A DNA stretch of 64,000 nt from contig CALSLK010000003.1 of assembly GCA_943787175.1 (NCBI GenBank), forward strand, positions 67,409 to 131,408. Direction: 5' to 3'. The notes under the pieces are model-generated. The model was not told the DNA's origin and ran no database searches. It saw nothing but the letters and a program-made list of their open reading frames with translations. Within the stretch, counting starts at the first letter, position 1; each line of letters starts with the position of its first letter. The DNA comes from an uncultured Alphaproteobacteria bacterium (GTDB lineage Bacteria; Pseudomonadota; Alphaproteobacteria; SP197). This document shows, in pieces, positions 7,034 through 47,105 of this stretch. Made by a program: the position numbers and the translations under genes.

Positions 7034-7082
7034 CCAGCGTCCTCTGTGGTAGGAGCCGCTGATGAAATCTGGAGATCAGTAG

Positions 7083-8504: not shown

Positions 8505-8926
8505 TGTCTGATCAAACCGTGTTTGTCCTCGACCCCAGATTGGAAGGTGATTCCGTTCCTGTTTGCGACCTTGGCCTCTGTACGGTGCGACTGATGAACG
8601 ATGCACGGTTTCCCTGGGTCATCCTGGTTCCACGCATCGCAGGCCTGGTCGAACTGATCGACCTTTCGGAAGCGGATCGCCGAACGGTGACCGATGAAAT
8701 CGACCGTGTGACACGTGCGTTATCATCGCACACCAGCGCCGAGAAGATGAATGTGGCTGCGTTGGGCAACATGGTCCGTCAGCTTCATGTGCACGTGATT
8801 GCGCGATTTGCTGGTGATGCGGCATGGCCGGGGCCGATCTGGGGTGTGGGAACGGCGCAGGCCTATGTCGAAGGTGACAGAATGGAACGGGTGGATGCTT
8901 TGAAAGCAGCGCTAATCGGCGCGTGA
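8504..8926 (+). CDS. HIT (histidine triad) family protein
   Basis: 140 aa with the HxHxHxx motif (QLHVHVIAR). Confidence 0.7.
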   Translation: MSDQTVFVLDPRLEGDSVPVCDLGLCTVRLMNDARFPWVILVPRIAGLVELIDLSEADRRTVTDEIDRVTRALSSHTSAEKMNVAALGNMVRQLHVHVIARFAGDAAWPGPIWGVGTAQAYVEGDRMERVDALKAALIGA

Positions 8927-8958
8927 TGCCCAGGTTGAATCCGGTTTAGGGTGGCTTC

Positions 8959-10563
8959 ATGAAATCGGAAAACGAATACGACTACATTATTGTCGGTGCG
9001 GGGTCGGCGGGTTGCGTGCTTGCCAATCGATTGTCTGAGGATCCCGATTGTCGCGTCCTGGTTCTTGAGGCCGGGGCAAAAGACTGGAGCCCGATGATCC
9101 GTATGCCAATCGGTGAAATCTTCACCGTGGGCAGCCGCTATGACTGGAAATTCGTGTCAGAGCCGGAACCCATGCTTGATGGTACCCGTGTGGGCCTGCC
9201 CCGTGGGCGTGTGCTGGGTGGGTCTTCGTCCATCAATGGTCAGCTCTACGTGCGTGGCCATGAACGTGATTATGACGAGTGGGCGCAGCTTGGCTGCAGG
9301 GGCTGGTCGTTTGATGATGTCTTGCCCTGCTTCAAGAAGTCAGAGCGCTGGAAGGGGCCTCAGAGCGAGCGGCGCGGCACCGATGGCCCCTTGCGAACGG
9401 CGTTGGGGCGCTATGACAATCCGCTCTACAGCGCCTTTCTGAAAGCCGGTCAGGAGATCGGCTATTCCCTGACGGAAGATTTCAACGGCGATGTGCAGGA
9501 AGGTTTTGGTCTTTCCCAATATACTCATGCGCACTGGTTCCCGCTGCGTCACTCCTCGGCCAACGCCTATCTACGTCCGGCCAAGCGGCGCCGCAATGTC
9601 ACGGTCCTGACGGATGCGCGGGCACTGAAGCTGATTCTGGAGGGTGACACCTGCAAGGGCGTGTTGTGCGATGTGCGCGGGGAGATCAAGACGCTGCGTG
9701 CGACGCGCGAGGTCGTTCTGGCAGCAGGTGCCTATCAGTCACCCCAGCTCCTGATGTTATCGGGGATCGGTGACCCCGATCATCTGCGCGAGCTTGGCAT
9801 TGACGTGACCTGCCCGCTGTCTGGTGTCGGTGCCAACCTTCAGGATCACTTTGGTTCGATGGTGCAGCATCGGTGTACCCAGCCGATTACCTATCATCGC
9901 CTGCGCAATCCCCTGAAATTGGCTGCAGCGGTGCTGCAACTGGGTTTGACACGCAGCGGTCCGCTTGCCGTATTCCCGATGAATGCACAGGCCTATGTGA
10001 AATCCGACCCTGCGCTGGAACGTCCAGATCTGCAGTTCTTCATGTTCCCGGTCGCAGTCCAGCCTGACAGTGATGATCTGCACTACTCTGGCTACAGCGG
10101 GTACAACATCCATTGGGCGATTCTGCGCCCACGGTCCATCGGCTCGGTCAGACTGCGTTCAGCGTCGCCCTATGATGCGCCGGTCATCCGGCACAATTAT
10201 CTGGCTGATCCCGAGGATCGCAGGCTCAACCGTGAGGCCTTCCACATTGCGCGCCGAATTCATGCCGCCAGTGCATTCGATGCATATCGGGGTGAAGAGG
10301 TTGATCCGGGGCCCGAATGCATCAGCGATGCTGACATTGACCGTCATGTCGCCCGGTTCCATTCGACCCATTACCACCCGGCAGGAACCTGCAAGATGGG
10401 GATCGACGACCATGCCGTGGTTGATCCAAAGCTCAAGGTGCGGGGAATCGAAGGACTGCGCGTTGTCGATGCCTCGATCATGCCGCGTCTGGTTGGTGGT
10501 AATACGAATGCACCAACCATGATGATCGGCGAGCGTGCTGCCGAACTGATTGCACAGGGCTGA
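8959..10563 (+). CDS. GMC family oxidoreductase (choline dehydrogenase-like)
   Basis: N-terminal FAD fold DYIIVGAGSAGCVLANRLSE, GMC signatures and a C-terminal HPAGTCKMG motif. 534 aa. Confidence 0.85.
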   Translation: MKSENEYDYIIVGAGSAGCVLANRLSEDPDCRVLVLEAGAKDWSPMIRMPIGEIFTVGSRYDWKFVSEPEPMLDGTRVGLPRGRVLGGSSSINGQLYVRGHERDYDEWAQLGCRGWSFDDVLPCFKKSERWKGPQSERRGTDGPLRTALGRYDNPLYSAFLKAGQEIGYSLTEDFNGDVQEGFGLSQYTHAHWFPLRHSSANAYLRPAKRRRNVTVLTDARALKLILEGDTCKGVLCDVRGEIKTLRATREVVLAAGAYQSPQLLMLSGIGDPDHLRELGIDVTCPLSGVGANLQDHFGSMVQHRCTQPITYHRLRNPLKLAAAVLQLGLTRSGPLAVFPMNAQAYVKSDPALERPDLQFFMFPVAVQPDSDDLHYSGYSGYNIHWAILRPRSIGSVRLRSASPYDAPVIRHNYLADPEDRRLNREAFHIARRIHAASAFDAYRGEEVDPGPECISDADIDRHVARFHSTHYHPAGTCKMGIDDHAVVDPKLKVRGIEGLRVVDASIMPRLVGGNTNAPTMMIGERAAELIAQG

Positions 10564-10630
10564 TACGACCGTTGAACTGGGGTGTGGTTTTGATGCAAAA
10601 AGGCTTCTGGCAGGCAGGTGCGATTCCCAG

Positions 10631-11461
10631 ATGAGTTTGAAAGATCTCAGTTACGTCCGGCATGAATATCCCGCTTTGCAGCGTGTGATGTTCCGCATGC
10701 TGGAGCTGATAAGCGGTCAGGCGCGTTTCCTGCGCACCTATGGTGATCACTTTGATCCCTGGTTGGACGCGATGCGCAGGCGCGAGCCCTGGGCGTGGAA
10801 TGACGGCCTCGACCGTCTGGGCATCGAACGCCGCATTCATGGTGAGGCCTGGCCTGTCGATGTTCCCAAGGGTCAGCCGATCGTGATGGTGGCCAATCAT
10901 CCCTTCGGCGTGCTCGACGGAACCACGATGCTGGCCCTGGCAGAACATCTGGAGCGCCCCATCAAGGTTATGATCGACAAGGCTTTGCTGCGCTTTGAGC
11001 CGCTGCGCGAATACGCCCTGCCGGTTGATTTCACGGAAACACAGGAAGCCAGGCAGACGAATGTGGAGAGCCGGCGCGAAGCCCGCGCTTGCCTCAGTCG
11101 TGGCGAGACCATCATTGTCTTTCCTGCTGCCGGCGTTGCAATAGCGCGCAACCCCTTTGGTCCGTCTGTCGATCAGCCCTGGGGTCCGCTGACGGCCAGC
11201 CTGATTCTCGATACCCAGGCAACCACGGTGCCGGTGTTCTTTCCCGGGCGGTGCAGCACAATGTTTCACCTGTTTGGCCGCATCAAACTCGACCTGCGTC
11301 GAACGCTGATGGCCAGTGAATTTTTCCGGCGCTGTGGCACGCCCATCGACCTTCATGTCGGCAAGCCGATCCCGGCAGGCGAGCTTGAGGCGATGGACGA
11401 TCGAACTGCGATCATGCAGCACCTCCGTGCGGTCGTGCATCAGCTCGGTGGTTTGCGATAA
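10631..11461 (+). CDS. Lysophospholipid / PlsC-family acyltransferase (hemolysin-like)
   Basis: HX4D acyltransferase motif (VANHPFGVLDG) and a PAAG-like motif (VFPAAGVAIA). Confidence 0.6.
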   Translation: MSLKDLSYVRHEYPALQRVMFRMLELISGQARFLRTYGDHFDPWLDAMRRREPWAWNDGLDRLGIERRIHGEAWPVDVPKGQPIVMVANHPFGVLDGTTMLALAEHLERPIKVMIDKALLRFEPLREYALPVDFTETQEARQTNVESRREARACLSRGETIIVFPAAGVAIARNPFGPSVDQPWGPLTASLILDTQATTVPVFFPGRCSTMFHLFGRIKLDLRRTLMASEFFRRCGTPIDLHVGKPIPAGELEAMDDRTAIMQHLRAVVHQLGGLR

Positions 11462-11474
11462 TTCCATCTGCTGG

Positions 11475-11500
11475 CGCTGCATTAATACAGCGCCTGATGC
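11475..11500. repeat. Inverted repeat CTGCAT-N14-ATGCAG in the intergenic region upstream of the sigma-54 promoter
   Basis: A perfect 6-bp inverted repeat seen directly in the sequence. Candidate upstream activator site or weak terminator. Confidence 0.3.
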
Positions 11501-11608
11501 AGAAATTCATCGATCGTTGACGTTCTGAAGCACACACAAATCTGGCGTGTTTTCCTAAGTTGTTGAAACACAAGAGAAATGTGAGTGGTTCCCAAGGGCG
11601 CGGACTCT

Positions 11609-11624
11609 TGGCATGCTGCTTGCT
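11609..11624 (+). promoter_or_regulatory. Sigma-54 (RpoN) -24/-12 promoter TGGCAT-GCTGC-TTGCT
   Basis: Matches the TGGCAC-N5-TTGCW consensus with exact GG-N10-GC spacing, about 65 bp upstream of the first GS-like gene. A GAFTGA-containing enhancer-binding protein is encoded in the same gene string. Confidence 0.6.
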
Positions 11625-11689
11625 GTCTAATTGTACAACAAGCGCTAGCCGGCAATGTATCGGAGCGCAGGGAATGAGGGGCTGAGGGC

Positions 11690-13048
11690 ATGGCAGCGAA
11701 GAAGTCTGCGCGCAAAACGGCGGAAAAAGGTGCGGTCGCACGGCTGCGCAAGCAGGGCGTGAAAACCGTCCACGTTGCGATCCCTGATATGGATGGAAGT
11801 CTGCGTGAACGGCGCCTGGCGCTGGACGACGTGGAAACGGCATTCGGGCCCGGCGGAACCTTCGTCAACGTGATCCACAAGTGGGATACCGGTGAAAGTG
11901 TGATTGGCGAACCACCGTTCATCGGCGAGGCCACGTCGCTCGACTGGAACAGCGTGCGCGACTATCCCTTTGAAGACGATTCAGCCTTTGTCTTTGCAGA
12001 CTTTGCCGGTCCGTCGGCAGCGCTCAGCCCCCGCGAACTTCTCAAAACCCAGATTGCGCGTGCTGCAAAGATGGGTTTTGCAGTCAAGGCTGCCATGGAA
12101 TTCGAGTTTCATGTGTTGGATGAAACAGCCGAAGCCTGTCGCGCCAAGGGCTTCGAGAATGTTGACATGTTTGCCCCCGACAACCGGTGTTGGTCGACAC
12201 AGTCTGCGGCAATCTATGCCGATTATGTGGCCGATCTTGATGCTGTCCTGAAACATGCAGGTGTTGGCCTGTTCGGACTGGGCCTGGAGCTTGGGCCCGG
12301 CTGTTTCGAAGCGACCCTGCGCGCGACCGATCCGCTGCGTGCCGCCGACGATGCGGTGCTGTTCAAGACTTTCACCAAAGCGTTTTCGCGCAGGCTGGGT
12401 CTGACAGCGACCTTCATGGCCCAGCTCAGTGCCAACCATGCCGGTCTTTCCGGCCACGTTCATTTGTCACTGGCTGATGCCAGATCCGGCAAACCGGTTT
12501 TCCACGATGCAAAGGATGCCGATGGCATGAGTGCGACCATGCGTCATGCAGTTGGTGGCATTGTTGAACTGGCACCTGAAGCCCTGGCCATGGCTGCTCA
12601 TACCGCAAATGCTTATCGTCGGCTGACGCCGGGAAACTGGGCGCCCAAGACCGCGACCTGGGCCGTGCAGAACTATGCGGCTGCGGTGCGCGCCGTTCCG
12701 GCCCCTGCCAAGCTGGCGCGCTTGGAATTCCGATTGCCGGCTTCCGATACCAACCCCTATCTGGCATTGGCCCTGACGCTGGGGTCTGCGCTGCATGGTA
12801 TTGAGACCAAGGCCAAACTGCCTGCACCCATCACACGTGGTGGTCCCGATGAAACGCCGGAAGGCGTTCCGGGCCTTCCTCATGACTTGTTGGAAGCTGC
12901 GGACCGCCTGGAGGCCTGTAAGCCCGCACGCGCCATGTTCGGCGACGTGTTCATCGATCATTTTGTCGCCACACGCCGCCACGAAGAAGCGGTCATTCGC
13001 AAACATGTCAGCGCCTTTGAAAGGGCGCGTTACATCGAGGCCGTCTGA
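11690..13048 (+). CDS. Glutamine synthetase family protein (gamma-glutamyl-amine ligase-like), paralog 1
   Basis: 452 aa with a GS catalytic-domain pattern (AMEFEFHVLDE, GLELGPGCFEATL, NAYRRLTPGNWAPK). Lacks the GlnA adenylylation features. Confidence 0.8.
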   Translation: MAAKKSARKTAEKGAVARLRKQGVKTVHVAIPDMDGSLRERRLALDDVETAFGPGGTFVNVIHKWDTGESVIGEPPFIGEATSLDWNSVRDYPFEDDSAFVFADFAGPSAALSPRELLKTQIARAAKMGFAVKAAMEFEFHVLDETAEACRAKGFENVDMFAPDNRCWSTQSAAIYADYVADLDAVLKHAGVGLFGLGLELGPGCFEATLRATDPLRAADDAVLFKTFTKAFSRRLGLTATFMAQLSANHAGLSGHVHLSLADARSGKPVFHDAKDADGMSATMRHAVGGIVELAPEALAMAAHTANAYRRLTPGNWAPKTATWAVQNYAAAVRAVPAPAKLARLEFRLPASDTNPYLALALTLGSALHGIETKAKLPAPITRGGPDETPEGVPGLPHDLLEAADRLEACKPARAMFGDVFIDHFVATRRHEEAVIRKHVSAFERARYIEAV

Positions 13049-13065
13049 CGGTTTCTCGGGGGAGA

Positions 13066-14541
13066 TTGAACTTGACCAAAGATGTTGATGCCTATGCCGA
13101 GGCACCCGGCCGCGCGGATCTGATCAAGCAGGTTCGCGCCAAGATCGATGAGCTGGGAATTGATTTCGTTTACTATCAGTACATCTCGATCACCGGACGC
13201 ATCATGGGCAAGGCGGTGCCTGCGCCCCATTGGGAAACGATTGCCATGAAGGGCATTCAGACCTGGGTCGGTGGCCTCACCAACGTCTTGCCGAACCGTG
13301 CAGGAACCCTGCTCGGGTTTGATTCCAACGCCCATGAACTGGTCGCGCTGCCGGATCCGGAAACGTTCTGTCAGCTTCCCTGGAACAAGCGGACCGCGCG
13401 GGTTTATTGCACCGTCTTCAACGGTCGCGAGGAACCTGAAAACCCCGGCGCGTTCATGGATGAAGATTGCCGAGGCAATTTGCGGCGCGTGAACCAGAAG
13501 TTCATGGACGATCATGACGGTCTGCACATGCGCCACGGTTGCGAGCCCGAGATGGCTTGGCTGTACAAGCCTGAGGACGGGAAGTTGCAGGGTGGGCCGA
13601 CCAAGCCGTTGGCCTATCACATCGATCAGTTCGAAGAGCTTTCCAGCGTCTACATGAAGGTCATCGACTACGGTCAGGCCATGGGGCTCGACATGATCCA
13701 GGGCGATCACGAAGATGCGCCTGGCCAGCTGGAGCTCAACTTCACCTATGACGAAGCCCTGCGCACGGCAGATCGCCTGACGACCTATCGTCAGATCTGC
13801 GCCCAGGTCGCACGTGAAGAAGGCCTGATCGCCTGCTTCATGTCCAAGCCGTTCCTTGGTGTCACGGCCAATGGTTGCCATCACAACATCTCGTTGTGGC
13901 GCGGTGGTGAGGGTGAAGTCGTTTCGCATGTTGATGAGCCACGTCCGGGGATGGATGGCGTATTCGAACATCGTGTGGGCGGCGATAACCTGTTCTACAG
14001 CGGCCCCGACGACTGGATGCCAGGGCCAACCGGGCTCCAGGCCATCGGTGGCATCATGGAGCATCTCCCGGCTCTGACCGCGATTGGGTCATCGACCGTG
14101 AATTCCTATCGCCGCATGCTGGATCTTGGCATGTGGGCGCCGGTCTATGCCGATTGGGGTTTCCAGAACCGCACCACTGCGCTGCGTGTTTCCGCGCCGG
14201 GCCGCCTTGAGTACCGCGCGGTTGATTCCATGGTGAACCCGTACCTGATGGCCGCAACGCTGATCGGTGCCATGGACGATGGGATCAAACGCAACATTGA
14301 TCCCGGTGAACCGGAACAGCGCAACATCTATGACGCCATGGAAGCGGGCAAGGAAGTCAAACGCCTGCCCAAGTACTTTGGTGACGCGCTTGATGCGCTG
14401 GCTGCCGACGAGGTCGTGAAATCTGCGATGCCAGGCGGGCTCTACGATATCTATGACGAGTACAAGCGTGACGAATGGGATCGTTTCAATGCCGAGGTAA
14501 GCAGTTGGGATGTCGAAAAATATCTCGACTGCCTGCCATAA
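13066..14541 (+). CDS. Glutamine synthetase family protein (GlnA-like N-terminal beta-grasp plus catalytic domain), paralog 2
   Basis: 491 aa with GS-family motifs (HGCEPEMAWLY, QLELNFTYDEAL, NSYRRMLDLGMWAPVYADWGFQNR). TTG start with a GGGGGAG Shine-Dalgarno upstream. Confidence 0.8.
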   Translation: MNLTKDVDAYAEAPGRADLIKQVRAKIDELGIDFVYYQYISITGRIMGKAVPAPHWETIAMKGIQTWVGGLTNVLPNRAGTLLGFDSNAHELVALPDPETFCQLPWNKRTARVYCTVFNGREEPENPGAFMDEDCRGNLRRVNQKFMDDHDGLHMRHGCEPEMAWLYKPEDGKLQGGPTKPLAYHIDQFEELSSVYMKVIDYGQAMGLDMIQGDHEDAPGQLELNFTYDEALRTADRLTTYRQICAQVAREEGLIACFMSKPFLGVTANGCHHNISLWRGGEGEVVSHVDEPRPGMDGVFEHRVGGDNLFYSGPDDWMPGPTGLQAIGGIMEHLPALTAIGSSTVNSYRRMLDLGMWAPVYADWGFQNRTTALRVSAPGRLEYRAVDSMVNPYLMAATLIGAMDDGIKRNIDPGEPEQRNIYDAMEAGKEVKRLPKYFGDALDALAADEVVKSAMPGGLYDIYDEYKRDEWDRFNAEVSSWDVEKYLDCLP

Positions 14542-14553
14542 GAGGAGGACCGA

Positions 14554-15420
14554 ATGTTCGAACTGACCAAGGATCAGGTCACCAGTTTTCGGGACGACGG
14601 TTACGTCTTCGCCCAGAACATGGTCGATGAGTCGACCATTGAGACAGCGCACGAGAGCTTTGAGCGCATGTTCCGAGGTGAATTTTCGACCGGGGTTTTA
14701 CCCGATGAGGTGAACTGGCAGGAGGGCAAGAGCGACCCTTCGCTGACACGCCAGATCTGCTGCGGTTGGAGAGGCGATTATGACATTGCGCGCACAGTGC
14801 TTCGCGCTGATATCGGTCGTGCCTGTGCAACGCTTGCAGGCTGGCCGGGCGCCCGTGTCTTTGTCGATAATGTGCTTTGGAAACCGGCGGGAACGCGCTC
14901 ACTGGGTCTCCATCAGGATGCAGCCTATCTGCCCTGGATGAATCCTCAGGAAATGGTGTCCTGTTGGATCGCATTGGATGATACGACCGCCAATGGCGGG
15001 ACCATGGAAGTCGTGAAGGGCTCGCACAAGTGGGCTGTTTCCAAGCCCGAAGGCGAGTTTCATGGCCCCGAGGACTATCAAAAACAGATGCGTCTTGCTG
15101 CTGCCAACGAGGGTGTCGAAGATCCTGAGGTCGTTCCCATTGTGGTGAAGAAGGGTTCGGGATCCTTCCATCATGGTCGTACCTGGCATGGATCGGGCCC
15201 CAACGAGTCTGGAAATCCGCGTCGCTCACTGGTGGTGCACTGCATTTCATCGGAGACTCAGTTCGTTCCCGAACACATCGGTATTGGGGTTGGGCCGGTG
15301 TACGGTCGGTACATGCGCCGGGATGGCAACCCGGTGATGGACGAGGCCTATTTTCCGATCCTGTGGACCCAGGACGGTTATCGTACGCCTTGGGTCGATG
15401 ACTATATGGCTGCTGCCTGA
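14554..15420 (+). CDS. Phytanoyl-CoA dioxygenase (PhyH) family Fe(II)/2-oxoglutarate-dependent oxygenase
   Basis: HxD facial-triad motif (LGLHQDAAY) and distal His (GSFHHGRTWHGSGPN). 288 aa. Confidence 0.8.
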   Translation: MFELTKDQVTSFRDDGYVFAQNMVDESTIETAHESFERMFRGEFSTGVLPDEVNWQEGKSDPSLTRQICCGWRGDYDIARTVLRADIGRACATLAGWPGARVFVDNVLWKPAGTRSLGLHQDAAYLPWMNPQEMVSCWIALDDTTANGGTMEVVKGSHKWAVSKPEGEFHGPEDYQKQMRLAAANEGVEDPEVVPIVVKKGSGSFHHGRTWHGSGPNESGNPRRSLVVHCISSETQFVPEHIGIGVGPVYGRYMRRDGNPVMDEAYFPILWTQDGYRTPWVDDYMAAA

Positions 15421-16295
15421 TGACGAATGCAGGCATCACCGCTGACACCGTGACTCACGCGGGGCATGATGCCCTCGACAAAGCGTCACGTGCCGAGCTT
15501 GATGTTCTGCGCGGCATTCTCGAAACCTCGCGCGATGCCTGCTGGTGTATCGAATACGATGAGCCGGTCGATATGACCGCACCAGAGCCTGAGATTTTGC
15601 GGCAGTTTTTCGAGAACGTATCGTTCTGGCGTCTCTGCAACGACGCGATGGCAAAGCTCTACAAGTTGCCGGCGGGCCTCGATTTCAATGAGCAGTCCGT
15701 GCGGTTCTACTTTCCGCGTAACGGCGACAACGAGAACTTTGTGCGCCAACTGATACGCGCAAAATTCAACATGGATGACGTGCCCTCGGTTGATAAACGC
15801 CACGACGGCAGCGTGATGCATGCTCAAAACGATGTTCGTGCCGACATTCGTGATGGAGACCTGCACAGGCTGTGGGGCACGGTGCGTGATATCAGCGCCT
15901 TCAAACATGCCGAACAGGAGCTGACACGCCAGCTTGGTGCCATGCAGGATGTTCTGACTGCCTTGCCAGATCCGGTGCTGGTGATTGATGGTGAAGGTGT
16001 TGTCGAAGCAGCCAATCCGGCGCTTGAGGCATGCCTTGGGTTCGATCTCGATACGCTCCTTGGGCGTCACCTTGATGACTTGATTGATTCGAATGGAGGC
16101 TTTGCAGGCCTGGCATCGCGGCTGCGTCGGCTGGGAAGCCCGCTGCGCTGCGATGTTTCCATGGTCACGACTGCGGGTCATCGACGGGATGCCGAAATGA
16201 ACCTGGCACGGTCCAGCGATGGGGATGGTGCGGTGCGGTTTGTCGCAAGCCTGCGTTTGCGCGATGACCATCCATCGGTGGCGGCAATGTCATGA
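15420..16295 (+). CDS. PAS-domain sensor protein, possibly the N-terminal part of the downstream enhancer-binding protein
   Basis: PAS-like folds and no output domain. The stop overlaps the next start (ATGA). Confidence 0.55.
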   Translation: MTNAGITADTVTHAGHDALDKASRAELDVLRGILETSRDACWCIEYDEPVDMTAPEPEILRQFFENVSFWRLCNDAMAKLYKLPAGLDFNEQSVRFYFPRNGDNENFVRQLIRAKFNMDDVPSVDKRHDGSVMHAQNDVRADIRDGDLHRLWGTVRDISAFKHAEQELTRQLGAMQDVLTALPDPVLVIDGEGVVEAANPALEACLGFDLDTLLGRHLDDLIDSNGGFAGLASRLRRLGSPLRCDVSMVTTAGHRRDAEMNLARSSDGDGAVRFVASLRLRDDHPSVAAMS

Positions 16296-17707
16296 GATTT
16301 CGCGGGTTCGACGTCAGCCATCACGATGACTCCGTTCCGGCCGCTGATGTCCTGGCTTCCATGGGAAGCGCCGGTCTTGGCGCTATCGCGGAGGCCCTGC
16401 CTGACGGCCTGGTTGCGTTCGATGCTTCCGGCGTTGTGGTGCTCTACAACCAGGCCGCAGAATCGATCCATGATGTCGCACGCGACAGGGCCCTGGATGC
16501 ACGCCTGGAAGAACTGGTCGAGGACAGTTCACTCGATTGTGCCGAACTTTCCGAAGCTGTGTTGGCGAAACGGCGTAGCGACCTTTTTGCGCGAACCAGT
16601 GATGGTCGATCCATTCTGGTTTCGGTGCGGCCCGTGCGCGATCGCCGTCGCGAAGCAATGCTGACGCTGGTGGTTTTGCGCGATCTGGACGTAATCGACC
16701 ATCAACGTGATGCAGGTAACCGCCATGGCGCAGCTGAGACCTTCCGGTTTCGTGCCAGCAGCTCTCTGGGAACAAGCGTTGATCGCGACCTCCTTCTGGA
16801 AGGCGACCTTGAACGTGCTGTTGGATTTGGCATCCGTGCCATGGAAAGACGTGCGCGGGTTTTGATCACGGGCGAAACCGGTGTTGGCAAGACTGCGATT
16901 GCGCGCCACTTGCACGATGCTGTGTGTGGTTCGGCCCGGCCGTTCGTCCAGGTCAATTGCGGCAGCATTCCTGAGACCCTGTTTGAATCCGAGATGTTCG
17001 GCTATGAGCGTGGCGCATTCACCGGTGCATTGCAGGGCGGCAAGAAGGGCCTGATCGAATCTGCGGCAGGTGGCACCCTGTTCCTGGATGAAGTGGGCGA
17101 GATACCGCTGCAATGTCAGGCCAAACTCCTGAAGTTTCTTGAGGATGGATCGGTTCAACGTGTGGGTGGTGCGACGTCGCGTCGTGTCGATGTGCGCATT
17201 CTTGCAGCGACCAACCGTGATCTCGAGACCATGATCGGCGCAGGCTCCTTCCGGCGTGACCTGTTCCATCGCCTGAAGGTGTTGACCATCGATGTTCCTC
17301 CGCTGCGTGAGCAGCCTGAACTCATAGAGCCATTGATTGCCAGGTTGCTCGACCGCGTGAACGCCGGCCGAAAACCGGTACTGCGACTCGATGATGCCTG
17401 CCGCGCCAGGCTGGGGACCTATTCCTATCCCGGAAACATTCGCGAGCTGGCAAACATCCTGGAGCGCCTGTCTGTCATCTGTGATTCGATTGCGACCGTT
17501 GCGGATCTTGAAGAAGGCGCTGTGCCTGTCACCACCGGTTCGTCGATCGATGACACGATGCCGTTGAAAGATCGGGTGCGGGCTTACGAACATGGTCTGA
17601 TTGACGAAGCCGTGAGGCGTCATGGCAGCAAACGCAAGGCCGCAAGAGCGTTGGGAGTCGACATTGGTACGGTGGTTCGCAAGACGCAAGGGGGAAGGCG
17701 GATATGA
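16292..17707 (+). CDS. Sigma-54-dependent transcriptional activator (PAS, AAA+ sigma-54 interaction domain, Fis-type HTH)
   Basis: Walker A GETGVGKT, GAFTGA motif (ERGAFTGA), sigma-54 interaction region and a C-terminal HTH (KRKAARALGVDIGTVVRK). Confidence 0.85.
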   Translation: MRFRGFDVSHHDDSVPAADVLASMGSAGLGAIAEALPDGLVAFDASGVVVLYNQAAESIHDVARDRALDARLEELVEDSSLDCAELSEAVLAKRRSDLFARTSDGRSILVSVRPVRDRRREAMLTLVVLRDLDVIDHQRDAGNRHGAAETFRFRASSSLGTSVDRDLLLEGDLERAVGFGIRAMERRARVLITGETGVGKTAIARHLHDAVCGSARPFVQVNCGSIPETLFESEMFGYERGAFTGALQGGKKGLIESAAGGTLFLDEVGEIPLQCQAKLLKFLEDGSVQRVGGATSRRVDVRILAATNRDLETMIGAGSFRRDLFHRLKVLTIDVPPLREQPELIEPLIARLLDRVNAGRKPVLRLDDACRARLGTYSYPGNIRELANILERLSVICDSIATVADLEEGAVPVTTGSSIDDTMPLKDRVRAYEHGLIDEAVRRHGSKRKAARALGVDIGTVVRKTQGGRRI

Positions 17708-17912
17708 CACGCTTCACTTGCATGTCTGACATGAACAACACCCATGAATTTGTGAATTCGGGTGGCGGCGCCCCGATGGGTCTGATGGCCCGACTAACTG
17801 CGCCGTATCCTATCCCCCCGAACGGCGTTAGAAAGGTTCTCTTGCGCCGCCGGGGTACTTCACCCCACCAAAGAGCGGTGGTAACAATGGGCAATGGAGG
17901 AGGCTTTAAGCC

Positions 17913-18983
17913 ATGAAGACGATTGGTACCAAACTGGGAACGGCAGTTGCTGCCGCGGCCCTCGCTGTCACAGGCTTTGCCGGTGCAGCACATGCCGAAG
18001 GTGAGCTCAATCTGCTTACCTGGGAAGGTTACACCGACGAGAGCTTCGTTTCGGTGTTTGAGGCGAATACCGGCTGCAAGGTCACGCCGACCTATGTTGG
18101 CTCGAACGACGAGTTTCCGGCCAAGCTGGCCGGCGGCGGCGGCGTCTATGATCTAGTCTCGCCTTCGGTCGATACCACGACCATTCTGATGAAGGCTGGC
18201 CTGGTCGAGGAGATCGATGTCAGCCGACTGGAGAACTGGGATCAGGTGTTCCCTCAGTTCAGCAGTCATAGCGGTGTGAACCATGATGGTGGCGTCTATG
18301 GCGTACCCTATACGTGGGGTGCCATTCCGTTCATGTACCGTGCCGACTCGTTCGACGAAGCCCCGACATCGATCATGCAGCTCTGGGAAGATGAATCCCT
18401 CAGCGGCAAGGTCAGCCTGTGGGATGACAAGACCAACATCTATGTTGTTGCGCGCATGATCTATGGCAACGATGTCAACGTCTATGATCTCTCTGATGAT
18501 CAGTTGGCAGCAGTCCGCGACAAGCTCATCGAACTCAAGCCTGCGATCCGCAAGTACTGGTCGACGGCCGGTGAACTTGTGAACCTCTATGCCAATGGCG
18601 AGGTCACGATCTCCAACACCTGGGGCGGCTATCAGTCTGCTCTGTTGGCCGATGAAGGCATCGAGATGATCGAATTCATCCCAGCCGAGAACGCCGATGG
18701 CTGGGCTGATGCCTGGCAGATCGTTGCTGGTTCGCCCAATGAGGATTGTGCCTATCAGTGGCTCAACTTCTCGATCAGCCCTGAAGGTCAGTGTGGCGTT
18801 GTTGGAATCACCGGTTATTCCGGCTCCAACCCGACCGCGCTTGGCACCTGCAAGAGCGATGAAGAAATGATGATGCTGCACATGGACGACTTCGGCTATC
18901 TCGATAGCCTTGTCCTGTGGCAGGAGCCTGCTCGTGTTGATGCCTACATCAACACCTGGAATGCCGTGAAGGCCGCGCAGTAA
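17913..18983 (+). CDS. ABC transporter periplasmic substrate-binding protein, PotD/PotF (polyamine/opine) family
   Basis: Signal peptide (AAALAVTGFAGAAHA) and PotD-like fold signatures. 356 aa. Confidence 0.8.
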   Translation: MKTIGTKLGTAVAAAALAVTGFAGAAHAEGELNLLTWEGYTDESFVSVFEANTGCKVTPTYVGSNDEFPAKLAGGGGVYDLVSPSVDTTTILMKAGLVEEIDVSRLENWDQVFPQFSSHSGVNHDGGVYGVPYTWGAIPFMYRADSFDEAPTSIMQLWEDESLSGKVSLWDDKTNIYVVARMIYGNDVNVYDLSDDQLAAVRDKLIELKPAIRKYWSTAGELVNLYANGEVTISNTWGGYQSALLADEGIEMIEFIPAENADGWADAWQIVAGSPNEDCAYQWLNFSISPEGQCGVVGITGYSGSNPTALGTCKSDEEMMMLHMDDFGYLDSLVLWQEPARVDAYINTWNAVKAAQ

Positions 18984-19073
18984 GCGACCTTCTACCAACG
19001 TTCGGGCCGGTTCGGCTGATCTGAACCGGCCCGTAACGTTCTCTTTCTCTTGGACGAACTGCGGTGTGACGTG

Positions 19074-20207
19074 ATGGCCAACATTCTTGAACTCAGTAAC
19101 CTGACCAAGACGTTTCGCGGTGGCGTGGTCGCTGTCGACAACATCTCGCTCGATATCAGCGAGGGTGAGTTTCTGACCATGCTGGGCCCGTCTGGCTGTG
19201 GCAAAACAACCACACTGCGCATGATCGGCGGCTTCGAGTATCCAGACAGTGGCTCGATCCTGCTCGATGGCCAGGACGTGACCGACAATCCGCCCTATCG
19301 GCGCCCGGTCAACATGATGTTTCAGGATTTCGCGCTGTTCCCTCATATGAATTCTGCCGAGAACATTGGTTATGGACTAAAGATTGCAGGCGTTTCCCGT
19401 GGCGAGATTGACGAGCGCGTCAAACGCATGCTCGACATGATCGAATTGCCTCTGATGGGTGATCGGCTGCCTTCTCAGCTCTCTATCGGCCAGCGCCAGC
19501 GGATCGCTTTGGCGCGCGCGCTGATCAACAATCCTCGTGTTCTCCTTCTGGATGAGCCGATGTCGGCGCTTGACGCCAAGCTGAAAGAGACGATGCAGAT
19601 CGAGTTGCGGCACATTCACGACCGCATTGGCATTACCTTCATCATGGTGACCCATGATCAGACAGAATCCATGATCATGTCGGATCGCATCATTGTCATG
19701 CATGCCGGTAGGATCGAGCAGATCGGTTCGGCTACGGAACTCTATGATCACCCCCACAGCGCCTATGTCGCCGAATTCCTGGGTACCTCCAACATGATTC
19801 CCGCGACGGTCACCAAGGATGGCTCCAGCCTGATGGCACGGGCTGGCGACCTCTCCATTGCGGTTGATGACGATGGCTCGGGAATTGTGGATGGCTCCGT
19901 GCGTTCGCTTTTCATCAGGCCCGAAAAGATCCGACTACTTGGTGATGGCGGTGTCGCCTATGACGGCGCCAGCGTGTTCACCGGGAAGGTGAAAGAACTG
20001 TTTTTCAGCGGTAACGCAGTGCGGATCGACCTTGACGTTGGTGCTGACCGTCCCGTCATGGTGCACCATCAGCTCGACACCGGCCTGGAACAGGCCGGCC
20101 TGCCCACGATTGGTGAAACGGCAACCTGTTCGGTGCGTCCTGAAACTGTGCGTCTGTTTGATATTGCAGAGGTCGCAGCGGTGGAAGCTGAAGGGGTTGG
20201 CGCATGA
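19074..20207 (+). CDS. ABC transporter ATP-binding protein, PotA/PotG-like
   Basis: Walker A GPSGCGKTT, ABC signature LSIGQRQRIALARAL, Walker B LLLDEP and a C-terminal TOBE-like regulatory domain. Confidence 0.85.
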   Translation: MANILELSNLTKTFRGGVVAVDNISLDISEGEFLTMLGPSGCGKTTTLRMIGGFEYPDSGSILLDGQDVTDNPPYRRPVNMMFQDFALFPHMNSAENIGYGLKIAGVSRGEIDERVKRMLDMIELPLMGDRLPSQLSIGQRQRIALARALINNPRVLLLDEPMSALDAKLKETMQIELRHIHDRIGITFIMVTHDQTESMIMSDRIIVMHAGRIEQIGSATELYDHPHSAYVAEFLGTSNMIPATVTKDGSSLMARAGDLSIAVDDDGSGIVDGSVRSLFIRPEKIRLLGDGGVAYDGASVFTGKVKELFFSGNAVRIDLDVGADRPVMVHHQLDTGLEQAGLPTIGETATCSVRPETVRLFDIAEVAAVEAEGVGA

Positions 20208-21073
20208 AGCATAAAACCCGGCGGACCCTGAACTTCTGGGCGCTGTTCTCTGCCCCTGCGTTGTGGTGGGGAACAGTCCTGTTGGTGCCGTATCTGATCA
20301 TGATGTCGATCAGTTTCTACTCGCGCCAGTTCCCGTTTCATGTGCCGGACTTCCAGTTTGGCAACTACGCCATCCTGCTGGAAGACTCACAGTATTATGA
20401 CGTTCTGGTGCGCAGTCTGTGGATTTCGCTGTCTGTCTCGTTGAGCGCATTTGTTCTGAGTTACCCGTTGGCCTACTTCCTGGCATTCAAGGTCCGTTCG
20501 GAACGCATGCGCCTGTTCCTGTATACGGCAACGATTGTTCCGTTGTGGGTGAGTTATCTGCTGCGCGCTTATACGTGGAAGACCATTTTAGGCAGCGAGG
20601 GCATTCTCAATTCATTCCTGATGTGGACCGGGATCATCTCGGAACCTTCGACGATCTTTCTATACAACCAGGGCGCCATGATTGTGACGATGGCTTACAT
20701 CTTCACGCCCTTCATGGTGATGCCGATCTATGCATCGTTGGAAAAGATTCCGGTCAGCTTGATCGAAGCGTCCAAGGACCTGGGCGCCCCAAGGTTCAAG
20801 ACCTTCCTGAAGATCACCTTGCCGCTTTCCATGCCGGGTGTTCTGGCAGGCTTCACCTTCACGTTCGGCCTGTCGATTGGTGACTTCATTTCGCCGATCC
20901 TGGTCGGTGGCCCATACTCGAACATGATTGCCAATGTCGTGGCGACGCAGTTTGGTATGGCGATGAATTGGCCGCTGGGTTCTGCGCTGGGCGTCGTCCT
21001 GCTCTTTATCGTTCTGGGCGTTATCACTGCTTCCGACAAGCTTGAGCGCGTCGGCCGATTGAACATGGGTTAG
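20204..21073 (+). CDS. ABC transporter permease (PotB-like)
   Basis: Six TM segments with an EAA-like loop (IEASKDLGAPRFKTFLKITLP). Overlaps the ATPase stop. Confidence 0.8.
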   Translation: MKHKTRRTLNFWALFSAPALWWGTVLLVPYLIMMSISFYSRQFPFHVPDFQFGNYAILLEDSQYYDVLVRSLWISLSVSLSAFVLSYPLAYFLAFKVRSERMRLFLYTATIVPLWVSYLLRAYTWKTILGSEGILNSFLMWTGIISEPSTIFLYNQGAMIVTMAYIFTPFMVMPIYASLEKIPVSLIEASKDLGAPRFKTFLKITLPLSMPGVLAGFTFTFGLSIGDFISPILVGGPYSNMIANVVATQFGMAMNWPLGSALGVVLLFIVLGVITASDKLERVGRLNMG

Positions 21074-21084
21074 GGGAGAGCATC

Positions 21085-21927
21085 ATGGCTGTTACTAGTA
21101 TGAACGGTGTGGGCTTGCGCAAACGACCCATGGATATGGGAACGACCGGCCTTGGCGTTGCGGCGACGTGTGTGCTGGCGTTCCTTTACCTGCCCATCAT
21201 CACGCTGATCATCTTCAGCTTCAATTCCAGTTCGATCACACGACTGCCGCTCGAGAGTTTCACCCTCGATTGGTATGTGAAGGCGCTTTCCAACAACGAT
21301 CTGATGACCGCTGTCTGGAACTCCGTGCTGGTGGGGTCGGCTGCGGTCGTGATCTGTCTGGCGATCGGTATTCCCACAGCGCTTGCGCTCGACCGATACG
21401 ACTTTCCGGGCAAAACGGTGTTCCGCCGTCTGGTCATTCTTCCGATCACGCTGCCAGGTCTGATTACGGGCGTTTCCATGCTGACCTTCTTCCGGTCAGT
21501 CGATATCCAGCTCACGATCTGGACGGTTATCATTGGTCACGGCACAGCGTTGACTGCCATCGTGGTCACAAATGTCTTTGCGCGCCTGCAACGGTTTGAC
21601 CGGCGTATCGAGGAGGCCTCGGCTGATCTCGGAGCGACACCGCTGAAAACCTTCTGGTTCGTGACGCTGCCCAACATCCGTGCGGCCATCATCGGCTCGG
21701 CCATGATTTCGTTCACGCTGTCGTTCGATGAACTTCCCGTGACGTTTTTCCTGACCGGGCGCGACAATACGTTGCCGATGTATATCTGGTCGGTCATCCG
21801 TCGTGGCATCACCCCGGAGATCAACGCCATTGGCACGATCATCGTGGTCGTCTCGATCCTGTTGATTCTGATTTCGGTGCTGTTGATGCACAGCGATAAC
21901 CAGAAGGCCGGGCCGGTTAAACCCTGA
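21085..21927 (+). CDS. ABC transporter permease (PotC-like)
   Basis: TM-rich with an EAA-like loop (IEEASADLGATPLKTFWFVTLP). Confidence 0.8.
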   Translation: MAVTSMNGVGLRKRPMDMGTTGLGVAATCVLAFLYLPIITLIIFSFNSSSITRLPLESFTLDWYVKALSNNDLMTAVWNSVLVGSAAVVICLAIGIPTALALDRYDFPGKTVFRRLVILPITLPGLITGVSMLTFFRSVDIQLTIWTVIIGHGTALTAIVVTNVFARLQRFDRRIEEASADLGATPLKTFWFVTLPNIRAAIIGSAMISFTLSFDELPVTFFLTGRDNTLPMYIWSVIRRGITPEINAIGTIIVVVSILLILISVLLMHSDNQKAGPVKP

Positions 21928-47041: not shown

Positions 47042-47105
47042 ACTGGGCTCCCCGTGAGTGACAGGACAACAGATAGGTGTTCCGTGCTGCGTTGGCAAGG
47101 GTGCG

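What the first reader, a model, noticed from the sequence alone, without database searches (positions are those of the whole stretch)
11609..11624. Textbook -24/-12 RpoN promoter with correct spacing
TGGCAT-gctgc-TTGCT places GG and GC exactly 10 nt apart, as in the TGGCAC-N5-TTGCW consensus. It lies about 65 bp upstream of the first GS-like gene (start 11690). A perfect inverted repeat CTGCAT-N14-ATGCAG at 11475-11500 lies about 110 bp further upstream, a plausible enhancer-binding site. The only sigma-54 activator in the window is encoded 4.7 kb downstream in the same gene string.
Basis: seen in the sequence. Interest (0 to 1): 0.55.

Follow-up and report, generated by a model that had tools for sequence, protein, structure and literature searches.

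The report
Conserved sigma-54 promoter with enhancer sites
The motif is very probably a working sigma-54 promoter, with two upstream activator-binding sites and a DNA-bending site, that switches on an uncharacterised amine-breakdown operon in marine alphaproteobacteria; it is a well-supported but ordinary kind of bacterial switch.

Summary
TGGCATgctgcTTGCT is at 11609-11624 (+), as reported. Alone it is not significant: the window has 3 one-mismatch matches against 3.7 expected. It is the only one of those that lies between genes.

Comparison with other genomes decides the case. Every related locus that keeps the operon's own sigma-54 activator gene and shows the upstream DNA (11 besides the window) has TGGCAY-N5-YTGC at the same place. 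This holds even where the flanking DNA is unalignable.

About 95-127 bp upstream lie two 16-bp dyads, consensus GMTGCAAAWTTGCAKC, with centres 19-20 bp apart. In the window they are at 11476-11491 and 11496-11511. An IHF-like site lies between them and the promoter (11556-11568). In 534 kb of related DNA the tandem dyad occurs only at this spot.

It consists of the left halves of the two dyads and is not the conserved unit.

The likely activator is the PAS/AAA+/HTH protein encoded at 16292-17707. It has an intact GAFTGA motif, and its DNA-binding helix is nearly invariant across orthologues. Most loci lacking this gene also lack the promoter.

This is a new member of a known kind, of modest interest.

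The parts
11476..11491 (.). Distal enhancer dyad (UAS-1), GCTGCATTAATACAGC. Its centre is 127 bp upstream of the -24 GG.
   Evidence: It matches G[AC]TG-N8-CA[GT]C. A tandem pair of such dyads is found at the same relative position in all 12 protein-derived loci listed, with one dyad degenerate in L034 and one N7 variant in L004. The tandem pair occurs nowhere else in 534 kb.
11496..11511 (.). Proximal enhancer dyad (UAS-2), GATGCAGAAATTCATC. Its centre is 107 bp upstream of the -24 GG and 20 bp (about two helical turns) from UAS-1.
   Evidence: In orthologues the proximal dyad centre lies 94-111 bp from the GG.
11556..11568 (-). IHF-like site TAAGTTGTTGAAA. It is the reverse complement of WATCAANNNNTTR with one mismatch, and lies between the enhancer and the promoter.
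   Evidence: YAA-N4-[CTA]TGA[ATG][AT] is found 32-52 bp upstream of TGGCA in 11 of the 15 loci listed. It is a perfect match in L029. The pattern was defined after seeing the first six loci, and the IHF consensus is from my own knowledge. IHF binding is inferred.
11609..11624 (+). Sigma-54 -24/-12 promoter element TGGCATgctgcTTGCT.
   Evidence: TGGCA, TT and GC are invariant in 12 loci except one CTGC. No sigma-70-like promoter was found in 11000-12000.
11635..11635 (+). Predicted transcription start. It is 24 nt downstream of G(-24) at 11611 and gives a 55-nt leader.
   Evidence: Inferred from the standard geometry of sigma-54 promoters. It has not been mapped.
11690..13048 (+). GS-like gene 1 (452 aa, Gln-synt_C only), the first gene of the operon.
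   Evidence: It scores below the cut-off for every GlnA, GlnT and PuuA equivalog.
13066..14541 (+). GS-like gene 2 (491 aa), always paired with gene 1.
14554..15420 (+). PhyH-family Fe(II)/2-oxoglutarate dioxygenase (288 aa).
   Evidence: In the L053/L054 variant a P450, a ferredoxin and a ferredoxin reductase take its place.
15420..16295 (+). Stand-alone PAS protein (291 aa). Its stop codon overlaps the activator's start codon by 4 nt.
   Evidence: A gene for this protein lies immediately upstream of the activator gene in every locus whose gene table was read. No homologue was detected in L004.
16292..17707 (+). Sigma-54 enhancer-binding protein with PAS, AAA+ and HTH_50 domains. Walker A is at residue 194, GAFTGA at 241 and Walker B at 263.
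   Evidence: The C-terminal helix GSKRKAARALGVDIGTVVRKTQ is nearly invariant in orthologues.
17913..21927 (+). PotD/YdcS-like ABC importer: binding protein 17913-18983, ATPase 19050-20207, permeases 20204-21073 and 21085-21927. It is probably part of the same functional unit.
   Evidence: No terminator, sigma-70-like or sigma-54 motif was found in the 205-bp gap 17708-17912. In L053/L054 these genes lie inside the operon, between GS2 and the PAS gene.

Best explanation
11609-11624 is a functional sigma-54 (RpoN) promoter for the operon GS-like 1, GS-like 2, PhyH dioxygenase, PAS protein and activator, and probably for the ABC importer that follows.

Proposed mechanism, by analogy with characterised enhancer-binding proteins:
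1. RNA polymerase carrying sigma-54 sits on the -24/-12 element as a closed complex.
2. Dimers of the activator encoded at 16292-17707 bind the two dyads at 11476-11491 and 11496-11511. The dyad centres are 20 bp apart, so both lie on the same face of the helix.
3. A bend at the IHF-like site (11556-11568) brings the activator to the polymerase.
4. After a signal is sensed, probably the amine substrate or a derivative, the AAA+ ring uses ATP and its GAFTGA loop to open the promoter. Sensing would be through the activator's own PAS domain, possibly with the co-encoded PAS protein.
5. Transcription starts near 11635.

The activator gene lies inside the operon it activates, so the circuit would be positively autoregulated.

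Shown here: the sequence elements, their conservation, their fixed geometry and their co-occurrence with the activator gene. Inferred: protein binding, the role of IHF, the inducer, the start site and the extent of the transcript.
For: **Motif and setting**
- The motif and its spacing are exact.
- It is the only such site in the window that lies between genes.
- No sigma-70-like promoter was found nearby.

**Conservation of the promoter**
- TGGCAY-N5-YTGC lies upstream of the GS1 orthologue in L001, L002, L004, L014, L029-L032, L034, L053 and L054.
- GS1 identity falls to 58% (L014) and activator identity to about 45-51% (L014, L034, L053, L054) in these loci.
- The flanks are unalignable and the upstream neighbour gene differs from locus to locus.
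- The background rate of this pattern in 1.07 Mb of strand is 13 hits. That is about 0.002 per 150-bp promoter region.

**The dyads**
- The tandem dyad pattern was defined on the first five loci. It was then found at the predicted place in all seven loci fetched later through the activator protein. One dyad is degenerate in L034.
- It has no other occurrence in 534 kb.
- A metagenome-wide scan for the whole architecture returned 18 contigs. Seven sit directly in front of GS1 orthologues of 48-83% identity.

**Link to the activator**
- Loci lacking the activator gene lack the promoter (L005, L006-L013) or have a decayed -12 element and a single dyad (L003).
- The activator has an intact Walker A, GAFTGA and Walker B, and matches solved NtrC, NifA, FleQ and PspF cores at E of about 1e-58.
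- Its HTH is nearly invariant across orthologues, matching the invariant dyad half-sites.
- In L040 a paralogous PAS/AAA+/HTH activator gene overlaps the start of the same kind of tandem dyad and -24/-12 promoter.

**Precedent**
- GcsR of Pseudomonas aeruginosa is a PAS/AAA+/HTH activator that binds tandem palindromes upstream of an RpoN site. That site lies 79 bp before the first ORF (PMC4894688).
Against: - No experimental data exist: no start site, no rpoN or activator mutant, no footprint.
- rpoN is not in the window. No RpoN box was found, so its presence in the genome is assumed from the GAFTGA activator.
- L002 keeps a near-consensus promoter and both dyads. Yet its PAS and activator genes have been deleted, leaving only a remnant of the HTH-coding sequence. 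Either another activator acts there or the deletion is recent.
- Only two strong dyads are conserved, whereas a hexamer is often nucleated from three dimer sites.
- The upstream acyltransferase gene reads in the same direction and no clear terminator follows it. Read-through transcription cannot be excluded.
- The strict dyad positions were used to find the sites. Their invariance is therefore partly by construction in the pattern-derived loci L035-L052.
Confidence: 0.8

Rival explanations
1. The sigma-54 promoter is real, but a different enhancer-binding protein activates it, for example NtrC under general nitrogen control as at glnA p2, glnII and glnT. The in-cluster activator would then serve another target, and the dyads would bind some other factor.
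For: - The first genes are GS-like, and GS genes are classic NtrC targets (my own knowledge).
- L002 retains the promoter and dyads without an in-cluster activator gene.
- Two weak NtrC-like matches, each with 3 of 12 positions mismatched, lie 21 bp apart at 11415 and 11436.
Against: - The NtrC-like matches are at chance frequency: 44 found against 47.5 expected.
- They lie inside the acyltransferase coding sequence and are absent from L001, which lacks that gene but keeps the promoter.
- The conserved dyads (GMTGCA-N4-TGCAKC) differ from TGCACC-N5-GGTGCA.
- The promoter and dyads co-occur with the in-cluster activator in 12 of 12 loci listed and are missing where it is missing, except in L002.
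- The activator has no receiver domain.
Confidence: 0.1
2. The -24/-12 match is a chance motif. The operon is transcribed from a sigma-70-type promoter or by read-through from the co-directional acyltransferase gene.
For: - One-mismatch matches are as frequent as expected by chance in the window: 3 against 3.67.
- No convincing terminator follows the upstream gene.
Against: - The motif is conserved in position in 12 loci, including ones with unalignable flanks and different upstream genes.
- It co-varies with the presence of the activator gene.
- No sigma-70-like site was found.
- The background rate is about 0.002 per promoter region.
Confidence: 0.04
3. The inverted repeats at 11473-11511 act as RNA hairpins, either as a terminator or as a stabiliser of the upstream acyltransferase transcript, and not as DNA binding sites.
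For: GGCGCTG-N8-CAGCGCC forms a 7-bp GC-rich stem directly after the stop codon at 11461. The fold energy of the 69-nt region is -21.2 kcal/mol, z = -2.2.
Against: - No U-tract follows, and the terminator scan finds nothing there.
- The predicted folds differ between loci.
- The dyads persist in L001, L029-L032 and L053/L054, where the upstream gene is different.
- What is conserved is the half-site sequence and the 19-20 bp phasing, not a stem.
Confidence: 0.03

Closest known systems
GcsR-dependent gcvH2 (gcs2) promoter of Pseudomonas aeruginosa, a TyrR-like enhancer-binding protein system (PMC4894688)
   Same: - The activator has PAS, AAA+ and a C-terminal HTH, and no receiver domain.
- It is encoded next to its catabolic operon.
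- Tandem palindromic binding sites lie upstream of an RpoN site.
- The RpoN site lies about 80 bp before the first ORF: 79 bp in gcvH2 and 81 bp here.
   Different: - The binding sites differ. GcsR uses an 18-bp TGTAACG-N4-CGTTCCG in three copies. Here there are two copies of a 16-bp GMTGCAAAWTTGCAKC.
- The operon differs: glycine cleavage there, GS-like ligases plus a dioxygenase here.
- Here the activator lies inside the operon and is preceded by a translationally coupled stand-alone PAS protein.
- Nothing here has been tested experimentally.
NtrC-dependent sigma-54 promoters of glutamine synthetase genes (glnA p2; rhizobial glnII and glnT). This comparison rests on my own knowledge.
   Same: A -24/-12 promoter precedes a GS-family gene. 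Two strong activator sites lie about 100-140 bp upstream and act through DNA looping.
   Different: - The activator here is a one-component PAS protein, not a response regulator.
- No NtrC-type sites were found above chance.
- The GS-like proteins score below the cut-off for every true GS equivalog. They are probably gamma-glutamyl-amine ligases.
NifL-NifA and classic IHF-assisted sigma-54 promoters such as nifH and Pu of the TOL plasmid. This comparison rests on my own knowledge.
   Same: - The order enhancer, IHF site, -24/-12 promoter.
- A PAS protein gene is translationally coupled to the activator gene, as nifL is to nifA.
   Different: - The PAS protein has no recognisable kinase-like or FAD-binding signature beyond one PAS domain. 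Its partnership with the activator is speculation.
- The enhancer motif is unrelated to the NifA site TGT-N10-ACA.
Ipu (isopropylamine utilisation) pathway: IpuC gamma-glutamyl-isopropylamide synthetase plus a P450/ferredoxin/reductase hydroxylase (PMC6776027, which cites de Azevedo Wasch et al. 2002)
   Same: - A GS-like ligase is combined with an oxygenase.
- The L053/L054 variant of this operon has exactly P450, ferredoxin and ferredoxin reductase next to the GS-like genes.
- An alcohol-type (GMC) oxidoreductase and an aldehyde dehydrogenase lie just upstream in the window.
   Different: - This comparison concerns what the promoter controls, not the promoter itself.
- Here there are two GS-like paralogues, and a PhyH dioxygenase replaces the P450.
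- The substrate is unknown.
- I know of no sigma-54 control reported for ipu.

Membership tests
Sigma-54 (RpoN) dependent -24/-12 promoter | GG and GC dinucleotides exactly one helical turn apart, within TGGCAC-N5-TTGCW | tested here: met
   TGGCAT-GCTGC-TTGCT is at 11609-11624, with one mismatch (C to T, the common variant).
Sigma-54 (RpoN) dependent -24/-12 promoter | Lies between genes, on the coding strand, within about 150 bp of a downstream gene start | tested here: met
   The motif begins 81 bp before the ATG at 11690. The other two window matches lie inside ORFs.
Sigma-54 (RpoN) dependent -24/-12 promoter | Conserved in orthologous regulatory regions beyond the background level | tested here: met
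   12 of 12 loci listed have it. The background rate is 13 hits in 1.07 Mb of strand.
Sigma-54 (RpoN) dependent -24/-12 promoter | A cognate enhancer-binding protein with an AAA+ domain and a GAFTGA loop is available | tested here: met
   Sigma54_activat scores E = 2.7e-60. GAFTGA is at residue 241, Walker A at 194 and Walker B at 263.
Sigma-54 (RpoN) dependent -24/-12 promoter | Upstream activating sequences about 80-150 bp from the promoter | tested here: met
   Two conserved dyads are centred 107 and 127 bp upstream of the GG. Binding itself was not tested.
Sigma-54 (RpoN) dependent -24/-12 promoter | An rpoN gene is present in the same genome | not testable with these tools
   No RpoN box was found in the 64-kb window or the fetched loci. 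The rest of the genome is not available.
Sigma-54 (RpoN) dependent -24/-12 promoter | Transcription starts about 12 nt downstream of the GC and depends on rpoN and on the activator's ATPase | not testable with these tools
   This requires 5'-end mapping and mutants.
TyrR/GcsR-like enhancer-binding proteins and their regulons | PAS, AAA+ and C-terminal HTH_50-type HTH, with no receiver domain | tested here: met
   Pfam gives PAS_4 at 34-132, Sigma54_activat at 182-333 and HTH_50 at 423-465. The NCBIfam TyrR model aligns over residues 28-463 but scores below its cut-off, 212 against 576 bits.
TyrR/GcsR-like enhancer-binding proteins and their regulons | N-terminal ACT domain, as in TyrR proper | tested here: not met
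   There is no ACT hit. The NCBIfam TyrR alignment starts at model position 81.
TyrR/GcsR-like enhancer-binding proteins and their regulons | Binding site of the TyrR-box type (TGTAAA-N6-TTTACA) or the GcsR type (TGTAACG-N4-CGTTCCG) | tested here: not met
   The conserved dyad is GMTGCAAAWTTGCAKC. It is palindromic and tandem like those sites, but its sequence differs (PMC4894688).
NtrC/NtrB nitrogen-regulated GS promoters | The activator is a response regulator with a receiver domain | tested here: not met
   There is no Response_reg domain. The N-terminus is a PAS domain.
NtrC/NtrB nitrogen-regulated GS promoters | NtrC sites TGCACC-N5-GGTGCA upstream of the promoter | tested here: not met
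   Only 3-mismatch hits were found, at chance frequency. They lie in coding sequence and are not conserved in L001.

The most novel reading that the evidence does not exclude
The PAS/AAA+/HTH activator, its translationally coupled stand-alone PAS partner and the 16-bp GMTGCAAAWTTGCAKC tandem dyads may define a previously undescribed TyrR-like activator subfamily. Its core regulon would be an uncharacterised, Ipu-like amine catabolic pathway: two GS-like gamma-glutamyl ligases, a hydroxylase that is either a PhyH dioxygenase or a P450 system, and a PotD-like importer. The pathway is widespread in uncultured marine Alphaproteobacteria and is present in cultured Dongia mobilis. The PAS partner would act as a NifL-like co-sensor. 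Paralogous activators would use the same enhancer grammar at other catabolic operons, such as L040 and L051.
Probability: 0.4. Interest if true: 0.5.

Novelty: new member of a known kind. Interest (0 to 1): 0.33.

Why it matters
The promoter itself is a standard bacterial device. The analysis does turn a bare motif into a complete, testable regulatory module: two activator sites, a bending site, a -24/-12 promoter and a self-encoded activator.

The module controls an operon of unknown function that recurs in many uncultured marine alphaproteobacteria. It gives a precise reporter and footprinting target, and the dyad consensus can be used to search genomes for further regulon members.

It also points to a cultured host for experiments, Dongia mobilis. 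There, inducers such as candidate alkylamines or polyamines could be screened, which would reveal the substrate of the paired GS-like enzymes and the hydroxylase.

Loci that lost the activator show step-wise decay of the promoter. They are a small natural experiment on how orphaned sigma-54 promoters erode.

Tried and rejected
- **Window-only statistics.** The motif count equals the chance expectation, so this alone was uninformative.
- **Plasmid collection.** A distant blastn gave only two short GS matches and no useful context.
- **Sigma-70 and terminator scans.** Nothing relevant was found around 11000-12000 or 17600-18000.
- **Second promoter before the transporter gene.** TGGCCCGACTAACTGC at 17786 has the wrong spacing, and no dyads lie there.
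- **Rfam.** Nothing was found in 11400-18000. Elsewhere in the window there is only a TPP riboswitch and two tRNAs.
- **RNAalifold on the conserved leader before the binding-protein gene.** It gave a weak structure with a covariation term near zero. No RNA element can be claimed.
- **RNA-hairpin or terminator reading of the dyads.** The folds are not conserved.
- **NtrC sites.** Hits are at chance level.
- **RpoN box in the window and loci.** None was found.
- **Third conserved dyad.** I looked for one by eye 20 bp either side of the pair. Only a degenerate GTTGACGTTCTGAAGC (11516-11531) is present. It is shared with the close relative L004 and was not seen in L001, L014 or L029.
- **Sigma-54-like TGGCATCGCGGCTGC at 16111, inside the PAS gene.** It is not present in L001, so it is treated as chance.
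- **Literature searches.** None found a described two-GS-like plus PhyH cluster, or this activator.

Full report
**1. The observation**

The sequence TGGCATGCTGCTTGCT occupies 11609-11624 on the + strand. The GG lies at 11610-11611 and the GC at 11622-11623, which is the canonical spacing. It ends 66 bp before the ATG of a 452-aa GS-like ORF (11690-13048).

The motif on its own is not remarkable. TGGCAC-N5-TTGCW with one mismatch allowed occurs 3 times in the window, against 3.67 expected from shuffles. The looser TGGC-N8-TGCW occurs 9 times against 8.1 expected. The other two one-mismatch sites (6377 +, 32861 -) lie inside long ORFs. The 11609 site is therefore the only one that lies between genes and points at a nearby start codon. 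No sigma-70-like promoter is found in 11000-12000.

**2. The gene string**

| Coordinates | Product |
|---|---|
| 11690-13048 | GS-like 1 (Gln-synt_C) |
| 13066-14541 | GS-like 2 |
| 14554-15420 | PhyH-family dioxygenase |
| 15420-16295 | PAS protein |
| 16292-17707 | PAS + Sigma54_activat + AAA_lid + HTH_50 activator |
| 17913-21927 | PotD/YdcS-like ABC importer, after a 205-bp gap |

The first five genes are separated by gaps of 17 bp or less, or they overlap. Both GS-like proteins score far below the NCBIfam cut-offs for GlnA, type III GS and gamma-glutamylputrescine synthetase.

The activator has Walker A (GETGVGKT, residue 194), GAFTGA (241) and Walker B (LFLDE, 263). Its core matches solved NtrC, NifA, FleQ and PspF structures at E of about 1e-58. 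It is the only such domain in the window.

**3. Related loci**

A scan of species-representative genomes with GS-like 1 gave 26 loci. Fourteen have clear orthologues (58-97% identity), all from uncultured marine alphaproteobacterial or Rhodospirillaceae genome bins. The state of the upstream region differs by locus:

| Locus | Upstream of the GS1 orthologue |
|---|---|
| L001, L004 | Identical TGGCATGCTGCTTGCT, 81 bp before the start codon |
| L002 | CTGGCACGGCCCTTGCG, in flanks that no longer align |
| L014 | TTGGCACGGGGCTTGCG, in flanks that no longer align |
| L003 | TGGCAC kept, but the -12 element has become TTAAT |
| L005 | No motif |
| L006-L013 | Gene directly follows another gene that I read as an S-formylglutathione-hydrolase-like esterase; no motif |

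Synteny mapping explains the pattern. L001, L004 and L014 carry the activator gene in the cluster. L003, L005 and L006-L013 do not.

L002 is the exception. Its PAS and activator genes have been deleted, leaving only the last ~35 codons of the activator (the HTH) directly after the PhyH stop codon. Its promoter is nevertheless intact.

**4. The enhancer**

Comparing the first five promoter-bearing regions revealed two 16-bp dyads of the form G[AC]TG-N8-CA[GT]C, separated by 3-4 bp. In the window they are GCTGCATTAATACAGC (11476-11491) and GATGCAGAAATTCATC (11496-11511). Their centres are 20 bp apart and lie 127 and 107 bp upstream of the -24 GG. L001 and L014 have exactly the same distances. 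L004 and L002 differ by 0.5-4 bp.

It is not conserved; in L001, for example, dyad 1 is GATGATTCTGAACATC.

I then treated the pattern as a prediction and tested it on loci fetched independently:
- Orthologues of the activator protein were found and their contigs retrieved.
- Seven of these loci include the DNA upstream of GS-like 1: L029, L030, L031, L032, L034, L053 and L054. Their activators are 46-72% identical to the window's.
- All seven have a tandem dyad followed 82-100 bp later by TGGCAY-N5-YTGC.
- The only deviations are one degenerate half-site and a CTGC -12 element in L034.

In the 534 kb of window plus protein-derived loci, the tandem dyad occurs nine times under the strict pattern, each in front of GS-like 1. 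That scan predates L053 and L054, and it misses L034, whose first dyad is degenerate. The sigma-54 pattern occurs 23 times on both strands in the same DNA. Ten of those are the GS1 sites, which leaves a background of about 1.2e-5 per position.

The consensus from 23 dyads is GMTGCAAAWTTGCAKC. The promoter consensus is yTGGCAYG-N3-CTTGC.

**5. A bending site**

Between enhancer and promoter, 11 of the 15 loci listed carry YAA-N4-[CTA]TGA[ATG][AT], 32-52 bp upstream of TGGCA. In the window it is TAAGTTGTTGAAA at 11556-11568. This is the reverse complement of the IHF consensus WATCAANNNNTTR (my own knowledge). It is a perfect match in L029 and has one mismatch in the window. I defined this pattern after seeing the first six loci, so it is weaker evidence than the dyads. 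IHF binding is inferred.

**6. Metagenome-wide scan for the architecture**

An exact-pattern scan for two dyads, a 75-105 bp gap and then TGGCAY-N5-TTGC returned 18 contigs. My rough estimate of the chance expectation is about one. The hits sort as follows:
- Seven lie directly upstream of GS-like 1 orthologues of 48-83% identity: L037, L038, L042, L047, L048, L050 and L052. Where the contig is long enough, the PAS and activator genes follow downstream.
- L040 has a paralogous PAS/AAA+/HTH activator gene (32% identity over the full length) whose last 9 bases overlap the first dyad. There the module drives what looks like a branched-chain-type ABC operon.
- L051 precedes what look like a CoA-transferase gene and TRAP transporter genes.
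- L035, L044 and L049 precede what looks like a CobO-like gene.
- L041 and L046 lie inside a coding region and are probably chance hits.

This suggests that the dyad grammar belongs to a wider activator subfamily. That point was not pursued.

**7. The link between activator and site**

The C-terminal helix-turn-helix, GSKRKAARALGVDIGTVVRKTQ, is almost invariant in activator orthologues. It is conserved even where overall identity is only about 45%. This matches the invariance of the dyad half-sites.

The promoter-enhancer module travels with GS-like 1 whatever gene lies upstream:
- an acyltransferase in the window, L002, L004 and L030;
- a GMC oxidoreductase in L001 and L003;
- a creatinase-like peptidase in L029, L031 and L032;
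- a ferredoxin reductase in L053 and L054.

**8. Rivals**

- *NtrC control.* A search for TGCACC-N5-GGTGCA gives only 3-mismatch hits at chance frequency. The two near the promoter lie in the acyltransferase coding sequence and are absent from L001. The activator also has no receiver domain.
- *RNA hairpin or terminator.* Dyad 1 forms a GC-rich stem in the window, but no U-tract follows. The terminator scan is negative, and the predicted folds differ between loci.
- *Chance motif.* This is excluded by the conservation described above.
- *What remains open.* L002 keeps the module without its activator. Only two strong sites are conserved. rpoN itself is not in the window. Nothing has been tested experimentally.

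**9. Mechanism proposed**

Sigma-54 holoenzyme forms a closed complex at 11609-11624. Activator dimers occupy the two dyads on one face of the helix. IHF bends the intervening DNA. A signal is sensed through the activator's PAS domain, possibly with the co-encoded PAS protein. That signal permits assembly of the ATPase ring, which opens the promoter through the GAFTGA loop. Transcription starts near 11635.

The transcript would cover GS-like 1 through the activator, giving positive autoregulation. It probably continues into the ABC genes, for two reasons. No terminator or promoter motif is found in 17708-17912. In L053 and L054 the ABC genes sit inside the operon.

**10. Comparison with known systems**

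The closest described system is GcsR of Pseudomonas aeruginosa, a TyrR-like PAS/AAA+/HTH activator. It binds tandem 18-bp palindromes (TGTAACG-N4-CGTTCCG) upstream of an RpoN site that lies 79 bp before gcvH2 (PMC4894688). The logic is the same here. The site sequence, the number of sites and the regulated pathway differ. TyrR's ACT domain is absent.

The regulated genes resemble the Ipu pathway, which combines a GS-like gamma-glutamyl-alkylamide synthetase with a hydroxylase (PMC6776027). The L053/L054 variant, which includes cultured Dongia mobilis, has a P450, a ferredoxin and a ferredoxin reductase in place of the PhyH dioxygenase. The pathway assignment is inference only.

**11. Verdict**

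The enhancer is redrawn as two conserved 16-bp dyads plus an IHF-like site. This is a new, well-documented member of a known kind of regulatory element. Interest is modest. The added value is a precise experimental handle on an uncharacterised, environmentally widespread amine-catabolic operon.

Noticed in passing
window 17763-17912; also L001-L005, L027, L029-L032: The non-coding leader before the PotD-like binding-protein gene is conserved. It has the blocks GCGTCGTTTCAWCGC ... TTCGGCGTTAMAA (in the window: CGAACGGCGTTAGAAAGG) and a CCACC...GGTGG hairpin just before the ribosome-binding site. There is no Rfam hit, and RNAalifold gives a weak structure with almost no covariation. It could be a sigma-70-type promoter or a leader element.
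   Followed up: partly
L002 10734-10960: The PAS gene and most of the activator gene have been deleted. The last ~35 codons of the activator (..AVRRHGSKRATARALGVDIGTVVRKTQRG..) remain directly after the PhyH stop codon. The sigma-54 promoter and both dyads upstream are still intact. This is either an orphaned promoter or control by an unlinked copy of the activator.
   Followed up: partly
L053 1-11371 and L054 1-11374 (Dongia mobilis type): A variant operon reads P450, ferredoxin, ferredoxin reductase, GS-like, GS-like, binding protein, ABC genes, PAS protein, activator. A P450 system replaces the PhyH dioxygenase, as in the Ipu isopropylamine pathway. The dyads and the -24/-12 promoter sit between the reductase gene and GS-like 1.
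   Followed up: partly
L006-L013, about 6700-10700: In eight alphaproteobacterial genome bins the GS-like 1, GS-like 2 and PhyH trio directly follows a gene that I read as an S-formylglutathione-hydrolase-like esterase. The gap is about 15 bp, and there is no PAS gene, activator gene, dyads or sigma-54 motif. The link to formaldehyde detoxification hints at a demethylating step.
   Followed up: no
L040 27-6209; L051; L035/L044/L049: The same tandem-dyad plus -24/-12 architecture precedes unrelated operons. One is an apparently branched-chain-type ABC importer whose PAS/AAA+/HTH activator gene overlaps the first dyad. Another appears to encode a CoA-transferase with a TRAP transporter, and a third a CobO-like adenosyltransferase. 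This suggests a wider activator subfamily that shares this enhancer grammar.
   Followed up: partly
window 11650-11664: A small hairpin, CCGGCAATGTATCGG, lies in the predicted 5' leader of GS-like 1. It is conserved in L001 (CCGACGATGTATCGG), L003 and L004. Its function is unknown.
   Followed up: no
L034 417-432: A third dyad, GATGCGGAATAGCATC, lies downstream of the promoter, in the leader of GS-like 1. It is seen only in this locus.
   Followed up: no
window 15417-15420 and 16292-16295: The PhyH and PAS genes overlap, and so do the PAS and activator genes (ATGA). This implies translational coupling of the stand-alone PAS protein with the activator, reminiscent of nifL-nifA. The N-terminal ~170 residues of the PAS protein have no Pfam match.
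   Followed up: no
window 11690-14541: The two GS-like paralogues are only about 27% identical to each other, yet they are adjacent in most loci where both were seen (L007 is an exception). Gene 1 has no detectable N-terminal beta-grasp domain. They may form a hetero-oligomer or catalyse two different ligation or hydrolysis steps.
   Followed up: no
window 7083-11461: Just upstream, on the same strand, lie an aldehyde dehydrogenase, a HIT protein, a GMC (choline-dehydrogenase-like) oxidoreductase and an OlsF/GlsA-like acyltransferase. The first three are syntenic in L001-L003. They could carry out later steps of the same pathway.
   Followed up: no
window 46960-47064 (-), 48476-48547 (-), 58733-58805 (+): A TPP riboswitch (75.7 bits) and two tRNA genes were found by the Rfam scan.
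   Followed up: no
L027 9481-12653; L029 13762-17446; L032 13621-15228: Downstream neighbours in several loci are an FMO-like monooxygenase, a 2OG-Fe(II) oxygenase and a further GS-like gene. This again points to metabolism of methylated or alkylated amines.
   Followed up: no
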